Below are positions 3,866 through 56,023 of a DNA stretch of 64,000 bases, piece after piece (within the stretch, counting starts at the first letter, position 1; every line of letters begins with the position of its first letter). The notes under the pieces were generated by a model, which searched no databases, was not told where the DNA came from, and saw only the letters and a list, made by a program, of their open reading frames with translations. The position numbers and the translations under genes are program-made. The stretch lies in NCBI GenBank assembly GCA_963752155.1, contig CAVVXH010000002.1:64001-128000 (forward strand), in the 5' to 3' direction. This DNA is from an uncultured Parachlamydiaceae bacterium (GTDB lineage Bacteria > Chlamydiota > Chlamydiia > Chlamydiales > Parachlamydiaceae).

Positions 3866-4738
3866 TCAGAAATGTTCAATGATGATTATTTTACCAGCAG
3901 CGCCTGTACCGCCTGCTCCTGAATTGGCTTGCGATGATATCCCTCCTCCACCACCACTACCGGCACCACCAGGGAAACCTCCATTTCCGCCAGTTCCTCC
4001 TGTCGTTCCAACTTTTGCTCCGCCGCCGCCTCCACCACCAGTACCACCACTAACTAAACCTCCAGTTGTAAGAGCAGAATTTCCATTACCACCGTTTAGG
4101 GTTCCTGTTTCTATTCCTCCGGACCCACCGGTTATCTTCACAATAGAATTTGCATTTGTAATATTGCCGCCGGTTCCCCCAGATCTTGCAGTGCTCGTAT
4201 CTCCGCCACCACCACCGCCTCCTCCAGTAGGTAATATATTACCTACTACTGCTTGTACGCTAGTTGATGAAGCTATAGTTCCACCAGTGCCCGTGCTAGC
4301 AGCAATTGAAGGAGCAAATTCAGTATATAAATTACCACCAGAAGAGGCAGAGGTGTTAGTAGTTGTCCCTGCATTTCCAGGATTTCCACCAGCACTTATC
4401 AAATTTCCAAATGTTGTGTTATTCCCCGATGTTCCAGCATTACCGTTTGTGTTATCTGTTGTTTGTGTTACACCACCATTTGCAGATGCTCCCACTGAAT
4501 ATGATTCGGTATCACCAAAAAAAGAAGCAGGAATCGTATAGTATCCTGCTCCTCCAGAACCTCCTCCTCCCCCACCGGAAGATACTGTAGATGATCCTTT
4601 TCTTCCAGAACCACCGCCAGCACCTCCACCCCATAAAAATACTTCAACCCACTGAGTACGAGAGTCCTTAGTCCATGTTCCAGAAGAAGTAAAGGTAGAG
4701 ACTTTAGTTGAACCATTTATACTATTGCGTAAAACCAT
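3866..4738 (-). CDS. Glycine-rich tail fibre-like protein (paralogue 2)
   Basis: FTSSGTWTK...EVFLWGGGAGGG...GAAGKIIIIEHF; Gly-rich phage domain; last gene of tail module. Confidence 0.75.
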   Translation of the reverse strand: MVLRNSINGSTKVSTFTSSGTWTKDSRTQWVEVFLWGGGAGGGSGRKGSSTVSSGGGGGGSGGAGYYTIPASFFGDTESYSVGASANGGVTQTTDNTNGNAGTSGNNTTFGNLISAGGNPGNAGTTTNTSASSGGNLYTEFAPSIAASTGTGGTIASSTSVQAVVGNILPTGGGGGGGGDTSTARSGGTGGNITNANSIVKITGGSGGIETGTLNGGNGNSALTTGGLVSGGTGGGGGGGAKVGTTGGTGGNGGFPGGAGSGGGGGISSQANSGAGGTGAAGKIIIIEHF

Positions 4739-4750
4739 ATTTACCCCTTT

Positions 4751-5626
4751 TTAGAAGTGCTCGATGACTATTATTTTACCAGCGGATCCTGTACCACCAG
4801 CTCCTGAATTGGCTTGTGCGGATATTCCCCCGCCTCCGCCACCACCTGCACCTCCAGGAGTACCTCCGTTTCCTCCAGTCCCTCCTGTCGCGCCAGCTTT
4901 TGCTCCGCCGCCTCCACCGCCAGCAGAACCACCACAAATTAATCCACCGCTAGTCACAGAAGGATTTCCGTTACCACCATTTAGCGTGCCTGTTTCTATT
5001 CCTGCGGTTCCGCCGGCTACATAAGTAACACCATTTGAATTATTAATTGCCCCGCCAGATCCTCCAGATCTTGCAGTAACAGTATCACCACCGCCGCCAC
5101 CGCCACCTCCTGTAGGTGAGAAAGTAATTACTGCTGCTGTTGTATCTCCTGCGGTATTTCTTCCAGCACCACCAGGATTAGTTACAACGGAGGAAATAGC
5201 ATATGAAGTGTTTAATCCTCCACCGACACCATTGATACCTGATGAAGTTCCTCCGCCTTGGCCCGCACCTCCACCAACAGCTATCATATTTCCAAATGTT
5301 GTATTACCTCCGGTAGTTCCATTATTACCATTTGTCGCATCTACGGTTTGGGCTACTGCCCCACCAGCGCTAGCTCCAATTGTATAAGACTCTGTGGATC
5401 CAAAAAATGAAGAAGGAGCTGCAAAATATCCTGAGCCTCCAGAACCACCACCGCCACCTCCGGAAGATGAAGCGCTAGTTCCTTTTCTTCCGGAAGCTCC
5501 ACCACCACCTCCACCCCATAAAAATACTTCTATCCACTTCGTGCGAGAGTCCTTTGTCCATGTTCCAGAACTAGAAGTATAAGTTGTGATCTTAATTGAA
5601 CCGTTTATAGCATTATTTGTGGCCAC
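4751..5626 (-). CDS. Glycine-rich tail fibre-like protein (paralogue 1)
   Basis: Colinear with and highly similar to 3866-4738; MATNNAIN start. Confidence 0.75.
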   Translation of the reverse strand: MATNNAINGSIKITTYTSSSGTWTKDSRTKWIEVFLWGGGGGGASGRKGTSASSSGGGGGGSGGSGYFAAPSSFFGSTESYTIGASAGGAVAQTVDATNGNNGTTGGNTTFGNMIAVGGGAGQGGGTSSGINGVGGGLNTSYAISSVVTNPGGAGRNTAGDTTAAVITFSPTGGGGGGGGDTVTARSGGSGGAINNSNGVTYVAGGTAGIETGTLNGGNGNPSVTSGGLICGGSAGGGGGGAKAGATGGTGGNGGTPGGAGGGGGGGISAQANSGAGGTGSAGKIIVIEHF

Positions 5627-5642
5627 AAGTACTCCTTATTCG

Positions 5643-5945
5643 TTAGAAAGACTCTAACGCTCCTTGTAAATTTACAGATAAAATACTTGCTGCTAACCGT
5701 GCTTTAGCTTCGTTATAGGCGGCTTCTCTCTCAGCTTTGCTGGTATCATCCTCAGGAGGTTTCATAATAGAAAGAGGTCTTACATAATCCTGTAAGTTTT
5801 CCATCCAGATATCTCCCATTGCAGCTTCCTGGGTTTCTTTTACCACGTAACCTGCTGGCGGTTGCCATTGAGTCACTCCATCCCACATAATGACATTGGT
5901 AACCACATTTTTTTGATCTATGACTGCATATCTACTGCTCATCAA
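5643..5945 (-). CDS. Small tail fibre-associated / assembly protein
   Basis: RYAVID..NVVTNVIMWDG...AMGDIW pattern common next to Gly-rich fibre genes. Confidence 0.55.
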   Translation of the reverse strand: MMSSRYAVIDQKNVVTNVIMWDGVTQWQPPAGYVVKETQEAAMGDIWMENLQDYVRPLSIMKPPEDDTSKAEREAAYNEAKARLAASILSVNLQGALESF

Positions 5946-53730: not shown

Positions 53731-54200
53731 TTGGATCCTCCACCATTTTCTTCTATGCAGTCGCCTCTCCCGTTATCGGGAATGTAAATTTGAACAGGAT
53801 CTTCTCCTTTGACGATTGTTTCCGTAACAATAGTTTCTCTTTGGCCAAGCCATATTTTACCAAGCCAAATAGCCATGGTCGCACTGCGCTCAGCTTGCTG
53901 AAATTGATAACGTCGGAGGGAGAGTTTATGACGCCCATTGCACCTTTTTCTTAGCTCCGCAAAACCCATACCAAAAGCCTCCCTTAATCTTCGATCCAAA
54001 GTATCGACGCTGACCCGAAAAGAACCTGCAATTTCTTCAGCCGTTGCTTGCATTTCTGTCCAATAAAGTACTTGATCTAGATTGATTTCCTTTGCTGGAA
54101 CAATTCCTTTCCATTCCTCAGGAGGGGATTTCGGATCCATTGGTGGTTTGACTGTTTTCTTAGGCCGACCGTTGGGCCGTCCTGTAGGCTTTCTAGGCAT
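53685..54200 (-). CDS. Terminase small subunit (putative)
   Basis: GRPKK, HTH (TAEEIA..SVDTL.RR), SLRR.QF..A...TMAIWLGK.WLGQ; directly upstream of TerL. Confidence 0.75.
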   Translation of the reverse strand: MPRKPTGRPNGRPKKTVKPPMDPKSPPEEWKGIVPAKEINLDQVLYWTEMQATAEEIAGSFRVSVDTLDRRLREAFGMGFAELRKRCNGRHKLSLRRYQFQQAERSATMAIWLGKIWLGQRETIVTETIVKGEDPVQIYIPDNGRGDCIEENGGGSKCLKSNLRKVLNTNS

Positions 54201-55432
54201 AATCTTCACCATTCAACTTAATGTCGCATGGCTCATTTCTATGCAGCTTATACTTCCTATATCGATCGACAATGACATCGCAATATTTTGGATCGAGCTC
54301 ACAACCAAAACATCTGCGGTCCAACTGTTCTGCCGCGATTAGCGTTGTTCCAGATCCCAAGAAAGAAATCAAAAATAAGATCATCTTTCTTTGAGCTGTT
54401 ATTGATAAGATAGCCAATCAATGGAATAGGTTTCATGGTCGGATGCTCAGCATTTCGCTGGGGTCTATCAAATTTAAGAAGGGTGGTTTGTTTGCGATTA
54501 TTATACCATCGATGCTTCTCTCCCTCTTTCCATCCATAAAGAACAGGATCATGGTCGCTGTACTCCTTACCCCCAAAAAGAACTGGCTCGTGCTGCCATT
54601 GATAATCTTGACGTCCCAGAACAAGAGAGTTCTTAAGCCAGATAAGACATTGTGTCATTTTTAAATTGGCTTCTCGAAAAAACCGACGGAATTTTTCTCC
54701 TTCGGAATCAGCGTGAAATACATAGATCCCTGCTCCTTCTTTCATAAAAACGAAAGCATTCACATAGAAATCTCGCAATAGGGATTCGAATTCCTCATTT
54801 GAAAGATCATCATTTTTGATGGTAAGCTTGTCTTTTGTTCCTCCTTTGTAAGCCACATTGTAAGGGGGGTCTGTAATGACAAGATCAATCAGTTCCGACT
54901 CAAGTACTTTTTCGATATCGCCATAAATGGTGGCTGATCCGCAGATTAACCGATGCCTTCCCAAATCATAAATATCACCTGGCTTGGACTTAGGTTCATC
55001 GGGTATCTCTTCTTCATAGCCATCATCAATCGCTTCAATCTTTTCTGGGTCTTTGAATTGAAGCTCACTTTCTGTAAATCCCCAATTGAAGAGATCTTTT
55101 ACCTCCCATTCGTTAGCTAAGCGTTCCCAATCCCATTCCCCTGAATTTTTATTACTGCGAATGAGATATTCTTCAGCTTCCCTTGAAGTCAACTGTCGGT
55201 TTGGAACTCTGACTTCAATTTCTTCTTTTCCACGTCCAAGGGCTTTCATGGCTTTGATCCTCATGTGGCCAGCTAAGATCGTGTTATCCAAATTGACGAC
55301 GATGGTCTCCACATAGTTAAAGCTTTTCAAGGATTGCTTTAGCTTTTCCATCTGATCTTTTGTGATTTTGCGCGGATTTTTTTCATGATCCTTTAAATCT
55401 TTGATCCGCCTGGTTTCCGTATGCCATACCAA
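54193..55432 (-). CDS. ParB-N domain + N6A/N4C DNA methyltransferase, one frameshift (~54365)
   Basis: KNPRKI, ILAGHMR; TDPPYN, HPTMKP, D.FLGSGTT, ELDPKY. Confidence 0.9.
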
Positions 55433-55681
55433 CTCATCTAAAATAATTTCTTCTGTGCTGGGGTCTCACTTTCAGTTGTCTGAGCCTCCGCATTTTTGGT
55501 TGTGCTCTTTGCCATCTTTCATCTCTCTGATTTATTTTTTTTCTTGTACAAGACCTGTAAACCAATTTTTTTATAAATACCAAGTTGGTAAAAAACGATA
55601 GAAAATCGGTAATTAGCTTTAGGAGAGTAATTGAGAAAGGGGAGTAGAGAGAGTAATTGAGTAGAAGCCTAATGGCTTGAT

Positions 55682-56023
55682 TTAAACTTTGCTGACAATT
55701 TCAATGGTGATTGGATATAAATCCTCTACCATCTTTCGTTTTGTCTGACTTAAAGCCGTATCTTTTCCTTTGGTATCGATAAAGCTTATTTCACCATTCG
55801 CATAAAAAACTTGAAAGTCACAGACATATCGCACTTTTCCAGGGAGGTCGAATGGGATTTGCCTTAAAAAAAACAAAACTTCTCCTGCTTTTTGAAGAAT
55901 TTGGAGCTTATCATAATACCTTCGCTCCAATTTTGAAGGGAATTTTTTACCATCCCTTTCGCAAGGAATTGCGCCGAATTTATGCTTTGTCCTTCCTCTT
56001 GGTCTAAAAAATTGTGTAGTCAT
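55682..56023 (-). CDS. DUF1064-like phage endonuclease
   Basis: HKFGA...DG.KFPSKLE, Q.PF.L, Y.CDF, DTKG. Confidence 0.8.
   Translation of the reverse strand: MTTQFFRPRGRTKHKFGAIPCERDGKKFPSKLERRYYDKLQILQKAGEVLFFLRQIPFDLPGKVRYVCDFQVFYANGEISFIDTKGKDTALSQTKRKMVEDLYPITIEIVSKV

What the first reader, a model, noticed from the sequence alone, without database searches (positions are those of the whole stretch)
3866..56023. Full contractile-tailed virion gene set in a Chlamydiae-like replicon, with plasmid genes in place of phage replication/lysis genes
Seen: TerS, TerL, portal, head morphogenesis, protease, decoration, MCP, neck, sheath, tube, TAC, TMP, baseplate and fibre genes, all on one strand. 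No holin/endolysin, repressor, primase/helicase or phage-type integrase was recognised. The neighbours are a pGP8-D-type integrase, a ParA fragment and RHH proteins. Established, to my knowledge: the characterised chlamydial phages are small ssDNA Microviridae. Inference: this is a tailed phage-plasmid, a gene-transfer-agent-like particle, or a domesticated prophage of an intracellular chlamydia, able to move large cargo.
Basis: partly seen in the sequence, partly recalled or inferred. Interest (0 to 1): 0.88.

Follow-up and report, generated by a model that had tools for sequence, protein, structure and literature searches.

The report
Integrated tailed phage-plasmid in a chlamydia
A 94-kb element, half tailed-virus genome and half plasmid genes plus cargo, is inserted in the chromosome of an amoeba-associated chlamydia, and its free circular relatives (one long filed as a 'megaplasmid') look like the first tailed phages of this phylum.

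Summary
The window carries a complete myovirus virion set, on the minus strand: fibres to portal at 3866-26107, terminase block at 52380-56023. These two blocks are separated by 26 kb of non-phage cargo.

It is not a separate replicon here. A 93,961-bp element (window 1704 to 95,664, so a third lies outside the window) is inserted in a chlamydial (Parachlamydiaceae) chromosome. The insertion splits both the element's parA and a host patatin/ankyrin gene at a 3-bp overlap.

The element is about 95% identical to the backbone of the 89.5-kb circular plasmid of Criblamydia sequanensis. Related circular contigs of 73-93 kb occur in at least five chlamydial families.

Primase-helicase, Exo/RecT and a Cro/CI-like gene do exist, 14-31 kb beyond the window end. 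No lysis genes were found.

Virion genes evolve at dN/dS of about 0.05. The nearest free phages are colinear 42-44-kb genomes without the plasmid genes.

Best reading: an integrated copy of a phage-plasmid family. The frame breaks in portal, MuF and TerL are probably assembly errors, because rpoB and rpoC are broken too.

Published work I could search calls these 'plasmids with a putative prophage'.

The parts
937..1703 (+). 5' part of a host gene (patatin/ankyrin protein) cut by the insertion. Its continuation starts right after the element, 93,961 bases further on, outside the window.
   Evidence: The reading frame runs across the reconstructed junction. The two halves align end to end with one 1036-aa paralogue on contig C6: N part to residues 71-310, C part to 312-1027.
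1704..1706 (.). Left junction of the element. It is a 3-bp overlap shared by both junctions.
   Evidence: blastn against the C. sequanensis plasmid: plasmid 62573-87120 = window 1704-26256, and plasmid 56231-62575 = window 89263-95664.
1703..1825 (-). parA fragment: the first 41 codons. The rest of parA lies at the other end of the element (window 95,004-95,705, outside the window).
   Evidence: tblastn of plasmid ParA: residues 1-41 at 1825..1703 (100%), residues 31-260 at 95705..95004 (95%).
1989..2159 (+). Ribbon-helix-helix protein next to parA. Probably the partition or regulatory DNA-binding partner (inferred).
   Evidence: Pfam HicB 8e-5, NikA-like 2e-4, FitA-like RHH 4e-4. 96% identical to the plasmid homologue.
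2155..3135 (+). APH-family kinase. Also present at this place on the C. sequanensis plasmid.
   Evidence: Pfam APH 3e-40. 88% identical to the plasmid homologue. Far below the NCBIfam APH(3') cut-off (42.8 against 205 bits).
3866..8326 (-). Tail fibre region: two Gly-rich fibre proteins (3866-4738, 4751-5626) and five small or unknown proteins. It is the variable part of the virion module.
   Evidence: Pfam Gly_rich_2; PHROG tail and fibre families. Both fibre proteins and the adjacent 99-aa ORF have a counterpart only in G049 among the 7 related elements.
8337..14279 (-). Baseplate: DUF2612 protein, wedge (662 aa), W-like, spike, hub, plug, Dit-like.
   Evidence: Pfam E217_GP41 1.6e-14, Pam3_gp18 1.5e-18, Dit_like 4.7e-31; PHROG baseplate families up to 1e-66. 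97-100% aa identity to the plasmid.
14279..18892 (-). Tail: tape measure (368 aa), assembly chaperone, tube, sheath (628 aa), tail terminator.
   Evidence: PHROG sheath 5e-106, tube family 4.5e-44, chaperone 5e-26, terminator 7e-25. dN/dS 0.00-0.04 against the plasmid.
19082..23667 (-). Neck and head: collar, Neck1, DUF4054, head-completion protein, major capsid protein (20651-21580), cement, protease/scaffold.
   Evidence: Pfam Major_capside 2.6e-72, Phage_cement 1e-18, DUF2213 3.6e-40. The capsid protein is 100% identical in aa to that of the C. sequanensis plasmid.
23793..26107 (-). Mu-F-like head morphogenesis protein (23793-24646) and portal (24649-26107). Both read in more than one frame in this assembly.
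   Evidence: Pfam Phage_Mu_F 3.8e-27, Phage_portal_3 8.6e-81. Pieces in different frames are shown. Contigs of 3 to 4 of 4 other runs lack the extra letters. rpoB and rpoC of this assembly are broken in the same way.
26319..27740 (-). AbiEii/AbiEi toxin-antitoxin pair next to the portal. It is conserved at this place on the plasmid.
   Evidence: Pfam AbiEii 1.5e-35. PADLOC AbiEii 4.6e-73. 81-86% identical to the plasmid pair.
27941..48320 (.). Cargo hot spot A (about 20 kb, both strands): MarR, about six GNATs, NUDIX, methyltransferase-CPT fusion, GrpB, APH kinases, DUF2608, serine hydrolase of the beta-lactamase fold, LRR protein, PEP-mutase fold, Ada, SDR, SnoaL, YhcG nuclease.
   Evidence: Pfam. 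No DNA counterpart on the C. sequanensis plasmid, which carries metal efflux and sugar genes at this spot. None of these genes reaches its family's NCBIfam cut-off as a resistance or enzyme equivalog. YhcG = PADLOC candidate PDC-S02.
48330..49313 (-). pGP8-D (Pgp7/8)-type tyrosine recombinase, conserved between TerL and portal across the family.
   Evidence: 98% identical to the plasmid homologue. 57-59% to recombinases of Simkania and Waddlia plasmids. 50% to pGP8-D of Chlamydia plasmids (112 Chlamydia records among 163 matching). Present in 7 of 7 related elements.
49304..52234 (-). Two small conserved ORFs, then a kinase-like protein and an AraC/GyrI-like regulator. The last two stand where relatives carry a second AbiE pair.
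52380..56023 (-). Packaging block: TerL (52380-53730, one frame break), small-terminase candidate (53748-54212, no family), ParB-domain DNA methylase (54196-55465, frame breaks), DUF1064.
   Evidence: Pfam Terminase_6N and 6C; PHROG TerL 9e-142; methylase PHROG 3e-114; DUF1064 6.7e-13. 94-97% aa identity to the plasmid.
56354..64000 (+). Start of cargo hot spot B, which runs to about window 77,700: GNATs, DUF7380/DUF4209 protein, NUDIX, SDR, hydrolases, LigT-like, HIT, ABC transporter.
   Evidence: Pfam. DUF7380/DUF4209 = PADLOC candidate defence protein PDC-S39, E 2e-202. It stands at the same spot in G062:C1.

Best explanation
The window holds the first two thirds of a 93,961-bp copy of a chlamydial phage-plasmid.

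The family consists of circular 73-93-kb replicons. Each combines three things:
(a) the colinear genome of a roughly 43-kb contractile-tailed phage: virion genes, headful-type TerL, DUF1064, and an early block with a Cro/CI-like gene, Exo and RecT;
(b) chlamydial plasmid-type maintenance genes: ParA plus an RHH protein, a primase-helicase, a pGP8-type tyrosine recombinase and AbiE addiction modules;
(c) 30-50 kb of changeable cargo at three fixed hot spots: portal|TerL, DUF1064|early genes, and early genes|replication genes.

Inferred life style. The element is kept as a low-copy plasmid, partitioned by ParA. The pGP8-type recombinase resolves multimers, and perhaps re-circularises injected DNA as Cre does in P1. 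The element spreads between chlamydiae sharing a host cell as tailed particles.

Shown for this genome. The circle was opened inside parA (codon about 40) and joined into a host patatin/ankyrin gene through a 3-bp overlap. That is illegitimate recombination, not an integrase/att event, so this copy has no evident route of precise excision. Whether it can still make particles cannot be told from this error-rich assembly.

Shown versus inferred. Shown: gene content, junctions, circular relatives, cross-family near-identity, purifying selection. Inferred: particle production, infectivity, the role of the recombinase.
For: - Virion and packaging genes are identified by Pfam and PHROGs.
- The contig is chromosomal on both sides: TopA-SWIB, DprA, IspD and MurJ to the left; PheT, SMC, AroDE and Lon to the right.
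- The element is colinear with the circular 89,524-bp plasmid of the cultured C. sequanensis CRIB-18 at 90-95% DNA identity over 46.2 kb. The circle is opened at plasmid position 62573-62575 inside parA.
- The host gene halves are colinear with one paralogue.
- Three metagenomic relatives have terminal k-mer repeats, which indicates circles of 73,511, 91,408 and 93,242 bp.
- 26 of 27 virion-block proteins of the plasmid have a homologue in each of the 7 related elements compared.
- dN/dS is 0.046-0.059 over about 8,000 codons in three deep comparisons where dS is saturated for many genes, and 0.048 for the window copy at dS 0.19.
- Host Lon is 64-71% identical between hosts, while element DNA is 95.7% identical between two host families.
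- PLSDB types the plasmid as non-mobilizable.
- At least 4 kb of the virion module was found in 11 of 400 phylum genomes, from 5 families.
- Complete 41.9- and 44.5-kb viral genomes with terminal repeats share 24 of 27 virion proteins, TerL, DUF1064 and the early block. They lack ParA, primase-helicase, recombinase, AbiE and cargo.
- The maintenance genes are plasmid-like. The recombinase is 50% identical to pGP8-D. ParA is 60% identical to that of the Protochlamydia naegleriophila megaplasmid. The primase-helicase is nearest to plasmid-borne ones.
Against: - No particle, induction or packaged-DNA evidence exists.
- No holin or endolysin was recognised in the element. The related free phages show none either, so this is weak evidence.
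- The small terminase is unsupported by any family.
- The elements are 1.7-2.2 times the size of their nearest complete phage relatives and have no extra head gene. A capsid of ancestral size could therefore not hold them.
- One relative (G034, 99% complete) has the virion genes but no TerL block anywhere in its genome. Members can thus persist as plain plasmids.
- The window copy has frame breaks in MuF, portal, TerL, the methylase and others. There are none in the 20 kb from fibres to protease, an uneven spread that assembly error does not obviously predict.
- Chlamydiae may also exchange DNA by direct uptake during co-infection (recalled, not tested). Horizontal spread therefore does not prove virions.
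Confidence: 0.75

Rival explanations
1. The element is a self-encoded transducing or GTA-like system. The elements have outgrown the roughly 43-kb head of their phage ancestor. Particles are made, but each carries only part of the 73-94-kb replicon or other DNA. They move cargo segments rather than a whole infectious genome. Whole elements re-form only when several particles enter one cell, with help from the element's Exo/RecT.
For: - The nearest complete phages are 41.9 and 44.5 kb, with capsid proteins 71-78% identical. The head module holds no extra gene in the chlamydial elements.
- The best matches in the named-phage collection have genomes of 48-62 kb.
- TerL is of the Terminase_6 type, which is headful in known phages (the link to headful packaging is recalled).
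- An Exo/RecT pair is conserved.
Against: - Capsid size cannot be read from sequence, and one capsid protein can build heads of different size (recalled: P2/P4, P1).
- Sizes of elements that look complete, 73.5-94 kb, with the longest related contigs at 97-98 kb, would also fit one larger head.
- The whole backbone, not pieces, is near-identical between host families.
- The patchy distribution is unlike that of vertically inherited GTAs.
Confidence: 0.15
2. The element is a plasmid with a fossil prophage. The virion genes are a passenger remnant, as published work phrases it ('putative prophage' building block). They are no longer used, and the element spreads only as a plasmid.
For: - Koestlbacher et al. 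[quoted passage not shown]
- G034's element lacks the terminase block.
- No lysis genes were found.
Against: - About 27 virion genes stay full length in 6 elements assembled from short reads.
- dN/dS is about 0.05 although synonymous sites are saturated.
- The phage part is not one insert. It is interleaved with plasmid genes and cargo in the same order in all members.
- No transfer genes are present, and PLSDB types the plasmid as non-mobilizable, yet spread across families is recent.
Confidence: 0.1
3. This copy is an ordinary decaying prophage. After insertion it is being eroded, and the frame breaks in portal, MuF, TerL, the methylase, the AbiEi antitoxin and the 548-aa gene next to the primase-helicase are real.
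For: - Breaks sit in packaging, replication-side and addiction genes but not in the 20 kb from fibres to protease.
- parA is certainly destroyed.
- Remnants of the portal and protease genes occur in single-contig chromosomes of other chlamydiae (G168, G118), so insertion followed by decay does happen.
Against: - The essential genes rpoB (at least 7 frame pieces) and rpoC (4 pieces) of the same assembly are broken more densely than the element. The breaks are therefore most simply sequencing errors.
- The genome's completeness is only 80% in 22 large contigs.
- Intact genes are 97-100% identical in aa to the plasmid, with no large deletions in the backbone.
Confidence: 0.25

Closest known systems
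Criblamydia sequanensis CRIB-18 plasmid 1 (NZ_LK031773.1 / LK031773; 'megaplasmid encoding arsenite resistance', Bertelli et al. 2014, PMC4208316, whole text read)
   Same: - Same backbone in the same order, 90-95% DNA identity over 46.2 kb.
- Capsid, tube and sheath proteins are 100% identical.
- Same recombinase, ParA, primase-helicase, AbiE pair and APH gene.
   Different: - The plasmid is a free 89.5-kb circle, whereas the window copy is inserted in the chromosome with parA split.
- Cargo is wholly different: metal efflux, ars operon and sugar metabolism there; GNAT, NUDIX, APH, CPT and hydrolase genes and candidate defence genes here.
[quoted passage not shown]
'Phage group' of chlamydial plasmid gene families (Koestlbacher et al. 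2021, Curr Biol, PMC7846284; passages read)
   Same: The same plasmids (P. massiliensis, C. sequanensis) and the same recognition of terminase and tail genes, of pgp7/8 recombinase and parA as plasmid core, and of plasmid-chromosome gene flow.
   Different: - That work reads the genes as a prophage acquired by a plasmid.
- Here the full virion set, its colinearity with complete 42-44-kb phages, purifying selection and the three-hot-spot architecture argue for one hybrid phage-plasmid.
- Their supplementary data were not read.
Phage-plasmids such as P1, N15 and SSU5 (Pfeifer et al. 2021, PMC7969092; abstract and passages read)
   Same: - Extrachromosomal temperate-phage architecture with partition and replication genes plus a complete virion module.
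- Larger than ordinary phages, with variable accessory genes.
- A tyrosine recombinase that could act like P1 Cre (analogy, recalled).
   Different: - No sequence relationship to P1, N15 or SSU5 was tested.
- The host phylum has no described tailed phage.
- Maintenance genes are of the chlamydial plasmid type.
- 'Chlamydia' does not occur in that paper's main text. Its supplementary list of 780 elements could not be opened, so the C. sequanensis plasmid may be listed there.
Uncultivated 42-44-kb viral genomes of IMG/VR with terminal repeats (handles G066, G070; also G067)
   Same: - 24 of 27 virion proteins, at 30-82% aa identity (capsid protein 71-78%).
- TerL 68-77% identical, plus DUF1064, PD-(D/E)XK exonuclease and a RecT-like protein.
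- Same gene order.
   Different: - No ParA, primase-helicase, recombinase, AbiE or cargo.
- TerL lies directly beside the portal.
- About half the size.
- Their hosts are unknown.
E217/PB1-like and Pam3-like myophage structural modules (Pfam families built on those phages)
   Same: Matches to E217_GP41 hub, E217_gp28 collar (weak), Phage_cement (E217 gp24/Pam3 gp6), Pam3_gp18 plug, KPP10_Orf10 tube and DUF3383 sheath.
   Different: - Distant relationship only. The best capsid match in 50,697 named phage records is 42% (Faecalibacterium phage FP_Brigit).
- Membership in those genera was not tested.
Gene transfer agents (RcGTA type)
   Same: Head-tail gene cluster in a bacterial chromosome, no recognised lysis genes, and possibly a head too small for the encoding DNA.
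   Different: - Has its own replication and partition genes, terminase and circular free relatives.
- Patchy distribution with cross-family near-identity instead of vertical inheritance.

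Membership tests
Phage-plasmid | Exists as an autonomous extrachromosomal replicon | tested here: inconclusive
   Met for relatives: the complete circular plasmid of a cultured isolate and three contigs with terminal k-mer repeats. Not met for the window copy, which is inserted in the chromosome.
Phage-plasmid | Plasmid-type replication and partition genes | tested here: met
   ParA (split here), RHH protein, and a primase-helicase fusion (Zn-ribbon, Toprim, DnaB_C).
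Phage-plasmid | Complete set of virion and packaging genes | tested here: met
   Terminase large subunit, portal, protease, capsid, neck, sheath, tube, tape measure, baseplate and fibres by Pfam/PHROGs. The small terminase is named by position only.
Phage-plasmid | Produces infectious particles that carry the element | not testable with these tools
   Only indirect support: dN/dS about 0.05 and recent cross-family spread of an element typed non-mobilizable.
Phage-plasmid | Lysis and lysogeny-control genes | tested here: inconclusive
   A Cro/CI-type HTH gene (E 2.4e-4) sits in the early block outside the window. No holin or endolysin was found, nor in the related free phages.
C. sequanensis-type chlamydial megaplasmid family | Colinear backbone with high identity to NZ_LK031773.1 | tested here: met
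   46.2 kb in 7 blocks at 80-95% DNA identity. 53 of 66 plasmid proteins tested have full-length single matches of at least 60% identity.
Chlamydial plasmid core (Pgp7/8 recombinase, Pgp5 ParA) | Pgp7/8 (pGP8-D)-type tyrosine recombinase | tested here: met
   50% aa identity over 96% of its length to pGP8-D of Chlamydia plasmids. 112 Chlamydia records are among the 163 that match.
Gene transfer agent | Vertically inherited chromosomal cluster conserved in a clade | tested here: not met
   Capsid gene found in 3 of 60 relatives. Virion module of at least 4 kb found in 11 of 400 phylum genomes. Not found in the two same-genus genomes searched. Element identity far exceeds host identity.
Gene transfer agent | Particles package host DNA and cannot carry their own gene cluster | not testable with these tools
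   The size argument (elements 1.7-2.2 times their phage relatives) leaves this open.
Integrase-mediated prophage | Insertion at an att site next to the integrase, with a repeated core | tested here: not met
   The break is inside parA, about 42 kb of circle away from the recombinase gene. The junctions share only a 3-bp overlap, and the target is inside a protein-coding host gene.

The most novel reading that the evidence does not exclude
These are the first tailed phages of the phylum Chlamydiae, and they have doubled a 43-kb phage genome with plasmid genes and cargo without adding a head gene. Two outcomes are possible. Either the lineage builds a larger head from the same capsid protein, or each particle carries only part of the replicon. 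In the second case the element works as a self-encoded transducer that shuttles 20-kb cargo blocks (defence genes, metal resistance, small-molecule-modifying enzymes) between unrelated intracellular bacteria that meet inside one amoeba.
Probability: 0.25. Interest if true: 0.85.

Novelty: new member of a known kind. Interest (0 to 1): 0.62.

Why it matters
The only characterised chlamydial phages are small ssDNA microviruses (passage in PMC5010888). How large plasmids without transfer genes move between obligate intracellular chlamydiae is not explained in the papers I read.

A family of 73-94-kb replicons would explain it if three things hold together: a complete contractile-tail virion set under strong purifying selection, about 95% identity across host families, and up to half of the length given to exchangeable cargo. 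Such a family would offer:
- a vehicle for gene flow in this phylum;
- a natural large-capacity vector candidate for environmental chlamydiae, which are hard to manipulate genetically;
- a clean case of a phage becoming a phage-plasmid, because colinear plasmid-free relatives exist.

The window adds an exact example of such an element being trapped in a chromosome by illegitimate recombination. That is one way phage and plasmid genes enter chlamydial chromosomes.

Tried and rejected
1. Frame breaks as proof of decay: rejected as evidence. rpoB and rpoC of the same assembly are broken more densely. Contigs of other runs lack the extra letters, but they come from other strains, so they decide nothing. 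No run held more than 0.53 of the sampled words, so the strain's own reads were not found.
2. Synteny of the window's flanks in same-genus genomes, to find an empty site: only short scattered matches. The N part of the host gene was found in 1 of 40 relatives. The paralogue test replaced this approach.
3. Lysis genes: Pfam, PHROGs and a hydrophobicity scan of 13 small backbone ORFs gave nothing. The same was true for the 78 non-virion ORFs (of at least 55 aa) scanned in two complete related phages.
4. CRISPR spacers against the element: short matches of 25-64 bp in three genomes have no repeats around them. They are not spacers.
5. Cargo as known resistance genes: APH, CPT, class-C-like and GNAT hits are all far below the NCBIfam cut-offs, so I do not call them resistance genes.
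6. A narrow size range as a sign of a packaging limit: weakened once a 73.5-kb circle was found.
7. Literature:
- 'chlamydiae' + 'phage-plasmid' gave 1 irrelevant paper.
- 'environmental chlamydiae' + 'Caudovirales' gave 0.
- 'Parachlamydiaceae'/'prophage'/'tail sheath' gave nothing relevant, and so did 'chlamydial plasmids'/'phage'/'tail'/'capsid'.
- The supplement of PMC7969092 could not be read.
8. One search failed on a coordinate slip. The item was dropped and the search repeated.

Full report
**What is in the window.**
- ORF listing and family scans show a contractile-tailed virion module on the minus strand from 3866 to 26107. It runs fibres, baseplate, Dit-like, tape measure, chaperone, tube, sheath, terminator, neck, capsid, cement, protease, Mu-F, portal.
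- A packaging block on the same strand lies at 52380-56023: TerL, an unnamed small ORF in the small-terminase position, a ParB-domain DNA methylase and DUF1064.
- Between them lie 26 kb of genes on both strands that are not virion genes. They are an AbiE pair, MarR, many GNAT/NUDIX/APH/CPT/hydrolase genes, an LRR protein, Ada, a YhcG nuclease, a tyrosine recombinase (48330-49313), a kinase-like protein and an AraC/GyrI regulator.
The 'TerS' has no family support, and the span is interrupted.

**Where the window lies.**
- The window is bases 64001-128000 of a 350-kb contig of a 3.13-Mb, 22-contig genome.
- The contig is chromosomal on both sides. TopA fused to SWIB (a chlamydial hallmark, recalled), DprA, IspD and MurJ lie to the left. 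PheT, SMC, AroDE and Lon lie to the right.
- The genome belongs to the same family as a MAG titled Parachlamydiaceae. This follows because G007:C52 is the contig of locus L010.

**Relatives.**
- The capsid protein is 94-100% identical in 13 MAG contigs. Most are labelled Chlamydiota, Parachlamydiaceae or Rhabdochlamydiaceae.
- It is 100% identical on the complete circular 89,524-bp plasmid of the cultured Criblamydia sequanensis CRIB-18 (annotation).
- Three metagenomic contigs end in exact k-mer repeats and so look circular: 73,511, 91,408 and 93,242 bp.
- Their gene content and the plasmid annotation show one architecture in this order:
  - replication genes (a 548-aa protein, a primase-helicase fusion, a 166-aa protein), ParA, an RHH protein;
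  - fibres through portal;
  - an AbiE pair, cargo and the recombinase;
  - TerL through DUF1064;
  - cargo;
  - an early block of about 15 small genes;
  - cargo.

**The copy in this genome is inserted in the chromosome.**
- blastn against the plasmid gives two blocks that meet at one plasmid position. Plasmid 56231-62575 equals window 89263-95664. Plasmid 62573-87120 equals window 1704-26256.
- The circle was therefore opened inside parA, near codon 40. The first 41 codons lie at window 1703-1825 and the rest at window 95,004-95,705.
- The element spans window 1704-95,664 (93,961 bp), so a third of it lies beyond the window.
- The two junctions share only 3 bp.
- The host ORF at 937-1703 continues in frame into the patatin/ankyrin ORF that starts right after the element.
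- Both halves align end to end with one 1036-aa paralogue elsewhere in the genome: residues 71-310, then 312-1027. This excludes a chimeric assembly.
- It also shows an illegitimate insertion into a host gene, not an integrase/att event.

**What lies outside the window.**
- The rest of the element was read with Pfam, tblastn and PHROGs.
- It holds a second large cargo region up to about window 77,700.
- The early block at 78,009-86,346 contains a Cro/CI-type HTH gene, a PD-(D/E)XK exonuclease, a RecT-like protein and an endonuclease.
- Next come a small third cargo spot and the replication genes with the primase-helicase at 92,123-94,468.
- So the 'missing' phage replication and recombination genes exist. 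Only lysis genes remain unrecognised.
- The related free phages show none either, so that absence is weak evidence.
- About 46.2 kb of the 94 kb matches the plasmid. The other half is cargo with no counterpart there.

**State of the copy.**
- Compared with the plasmid, MuF, portal, TerL, the small-terminase candidate, the methylase, the 548-aa gene and AbiEi change frame. None of the genes from fibres to protease does.
- In the same assembly rpoB is in at least 7 frame pieces and rpoC in 4, and completeness is 80%.
- The assembly is therefore error-rich, and I do not count the breaks as decay.
- Contigs of four other runs lack the extra letters. All four lack them at two of the three places and three of four at the third. 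They come from other strains, with at most 0.53 of the words shared.
- The one certain lesion is the split parA.

**Is the virion module in use in the family?**
- 26 of 27 virion-block proteins of the plasmid have homologues in each of the 7 related elements.
- A Nei-Gojobori estimate gives dN/dS of 0.053, 0.059 and 0.046 over about 8,000 codons against three distant elements, with dS saturated in many tail genes. For the window copy it is 0.048 at dS 0.19.
- Host Lon proteins are 64-71% identical between carriers. Yet the element of a genome from another family is 95.7% identical in DNA to the C. sequanensis plasmid over 20.6 kb and 95.8% identical to the window over 15.6 kb.
- PLSDB types the plasmid as non-mobilizable.
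- In an even sample of the phylum, 25 of 400 genomes have any match. Eleven, from five families, hold at least 4 kb of the virion module. Two single-contig chromosomes hold small portal or protease remnants.
- One 99%-complete genome has an 80.7-kb element with the virion genes but no TerL block anywhere.
- Related sequence occurs in runs of 11 studies, from digesters, groundwater, fresh water, hot springs, aquaculture and wastewater.

**Origin.**
- IMG/VR holds 73 loci with related capsid genes.
- Two complete genomes with terminal repeats (44,492 and 41,890 bp) and a third of 43,397 bp share 24 of 27 virion proteins, TerL (68-77%), DUF1064 and the early block, in the same order.
- They lack ParA, primase-helicase, recombinase, AbiE and cargo, and TerL sits directly beside the portal.
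- The chlamydial elements thus equal a roughly 43-kb phage plus insertions at three fixed places.
- The recombinase is of the pGP8-D (Pgp7/8) type. ParA is closest to the ParA proteins of the C. sequanensis and Protochlamydia plasmids. The primase-helicase is closest to plasmid-borne ones.
- No head gene was added. It therefore stays open whether a head of ancestral size can hold 73-94 kb. This is the basis of the transducer/GTA-like rival and of the novel case.

**What is known.**
- Bertelli et al. 2014 (PMC4208316, whole text) described the plasmid as a megaplasmid with 7% proteins 'of phagic origin'.
- Koestlbacher et al. [quoted passage not shown]
- Bertelli et al. 2016 (PMC5010888, passages) state that known chlamydial phages are Chlamydiamicrovirus.
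- My searches found no paper that calls these elements phage-plasmids or tailed phages. The phage-plasmid census of Pfeifer et al. 2021 does not mention Chlamydia in its main text, and its supplement was unreadable.
It points to an Hc1-like small early gene. I find only sub-threshold Pfam support for that gene (E 0.001-0.011), though it is also present in one of the free 42-kb phages.

**Verdict.**
The window copy is a chromosomal insertion, and the phage replication genes are present outside the window.
- It is a new, integrated member of a sequenced plasmid family, and the phage-plasmid nature of that family is under-described in print.
- Particle production is inferred, not shown.

Noticed in passing
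whole genome G000 (rpoB at C6:10172-13898, rpoC at C6:6032-10098): The assembly is full of frame errors. rpoB matches its family model in 7 pieces in different frames and rpoC in 4. Any pseudogene call in this genome is unsafe.
   Followed up: yes
window 56916-58772 and 47232-48320: Two PADLOC candidate defence proteins sit at the cargo hot spots. One is PDC-S39 (DUF7380/DUF4209, E 2e-202), which is also at the same spot in G062:C1. The other is PDC-S02 (YhcG nuclease, E 6e-134), next to the recombinase. Together with AbiE they make the hot spots look like defence islands.
   Followed up: partly
outside the window, window-equivalent 82344-82607 (L048:18344-18607): An 87-aa early gene gives a sub-threshold Pfam match to chlamydial histone Hc1 (E 0.001). 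Its homologues in G062:C1 and in the free 41.9-kb phage G070 do the same. If real, it hints that the plasmid-free phages also infect chlamydiae.
   Followed up: partly
G034:C3 (80,697 bp): A related element in a 99%-complete, 5-contig genome keeps all head and tail genes but has no TerL, small-terminase candidate, methylase or DUF1064 anywhere in the genome.
   Followed up: partly
G007:C52 and G007:C15: One genome holds two TerL genes (98% and 87% identical to the query) on different contigs. This suggests two related elements in one host.
   Followed up: no
G168:C1:801096-802090 and G118:C1:1616717-1616925: Single-contig chlamydial chromosomes carry isolated remnants of the portal (995 bp, 77%) and protease (209 bp, 75%) genes. 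These are likely scars of older insertions.
   Followed up: no
window 40809-41894: An LRR protein in the cargo shows partial similarity to LRR regions of type III effectors (XopAE, XopL models), far below their cut-offs. It is likely a host-interaction protein carried as cargo.
   Followed up: no
G070:C1:20444-22245: The free 41.9-kb relative encodes a TET/JBP-type oxygenase next to a TET-associated glycosyltransferase. This suggests hypermodified DNA bases. The chlamydial elements have a ParB-methylase at the equivalent place instead.
   Followed up: no
head genes against tail genes across elements: Between the C. sequanensis plasmid and G062/G063, dS is 0.3-1.0 for most head and neck genes (capsid protein, cement, protease, MuF) but saturated for most tail and baseplate genes. 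The head module seems to have been exchanged more recently, which points to mosaicism.
   Followed up: no
window 3774-4541 (+): A 255-aa ORF antisense to the fibre gene has no family match and is most likely spurious.
   Followed up: partly
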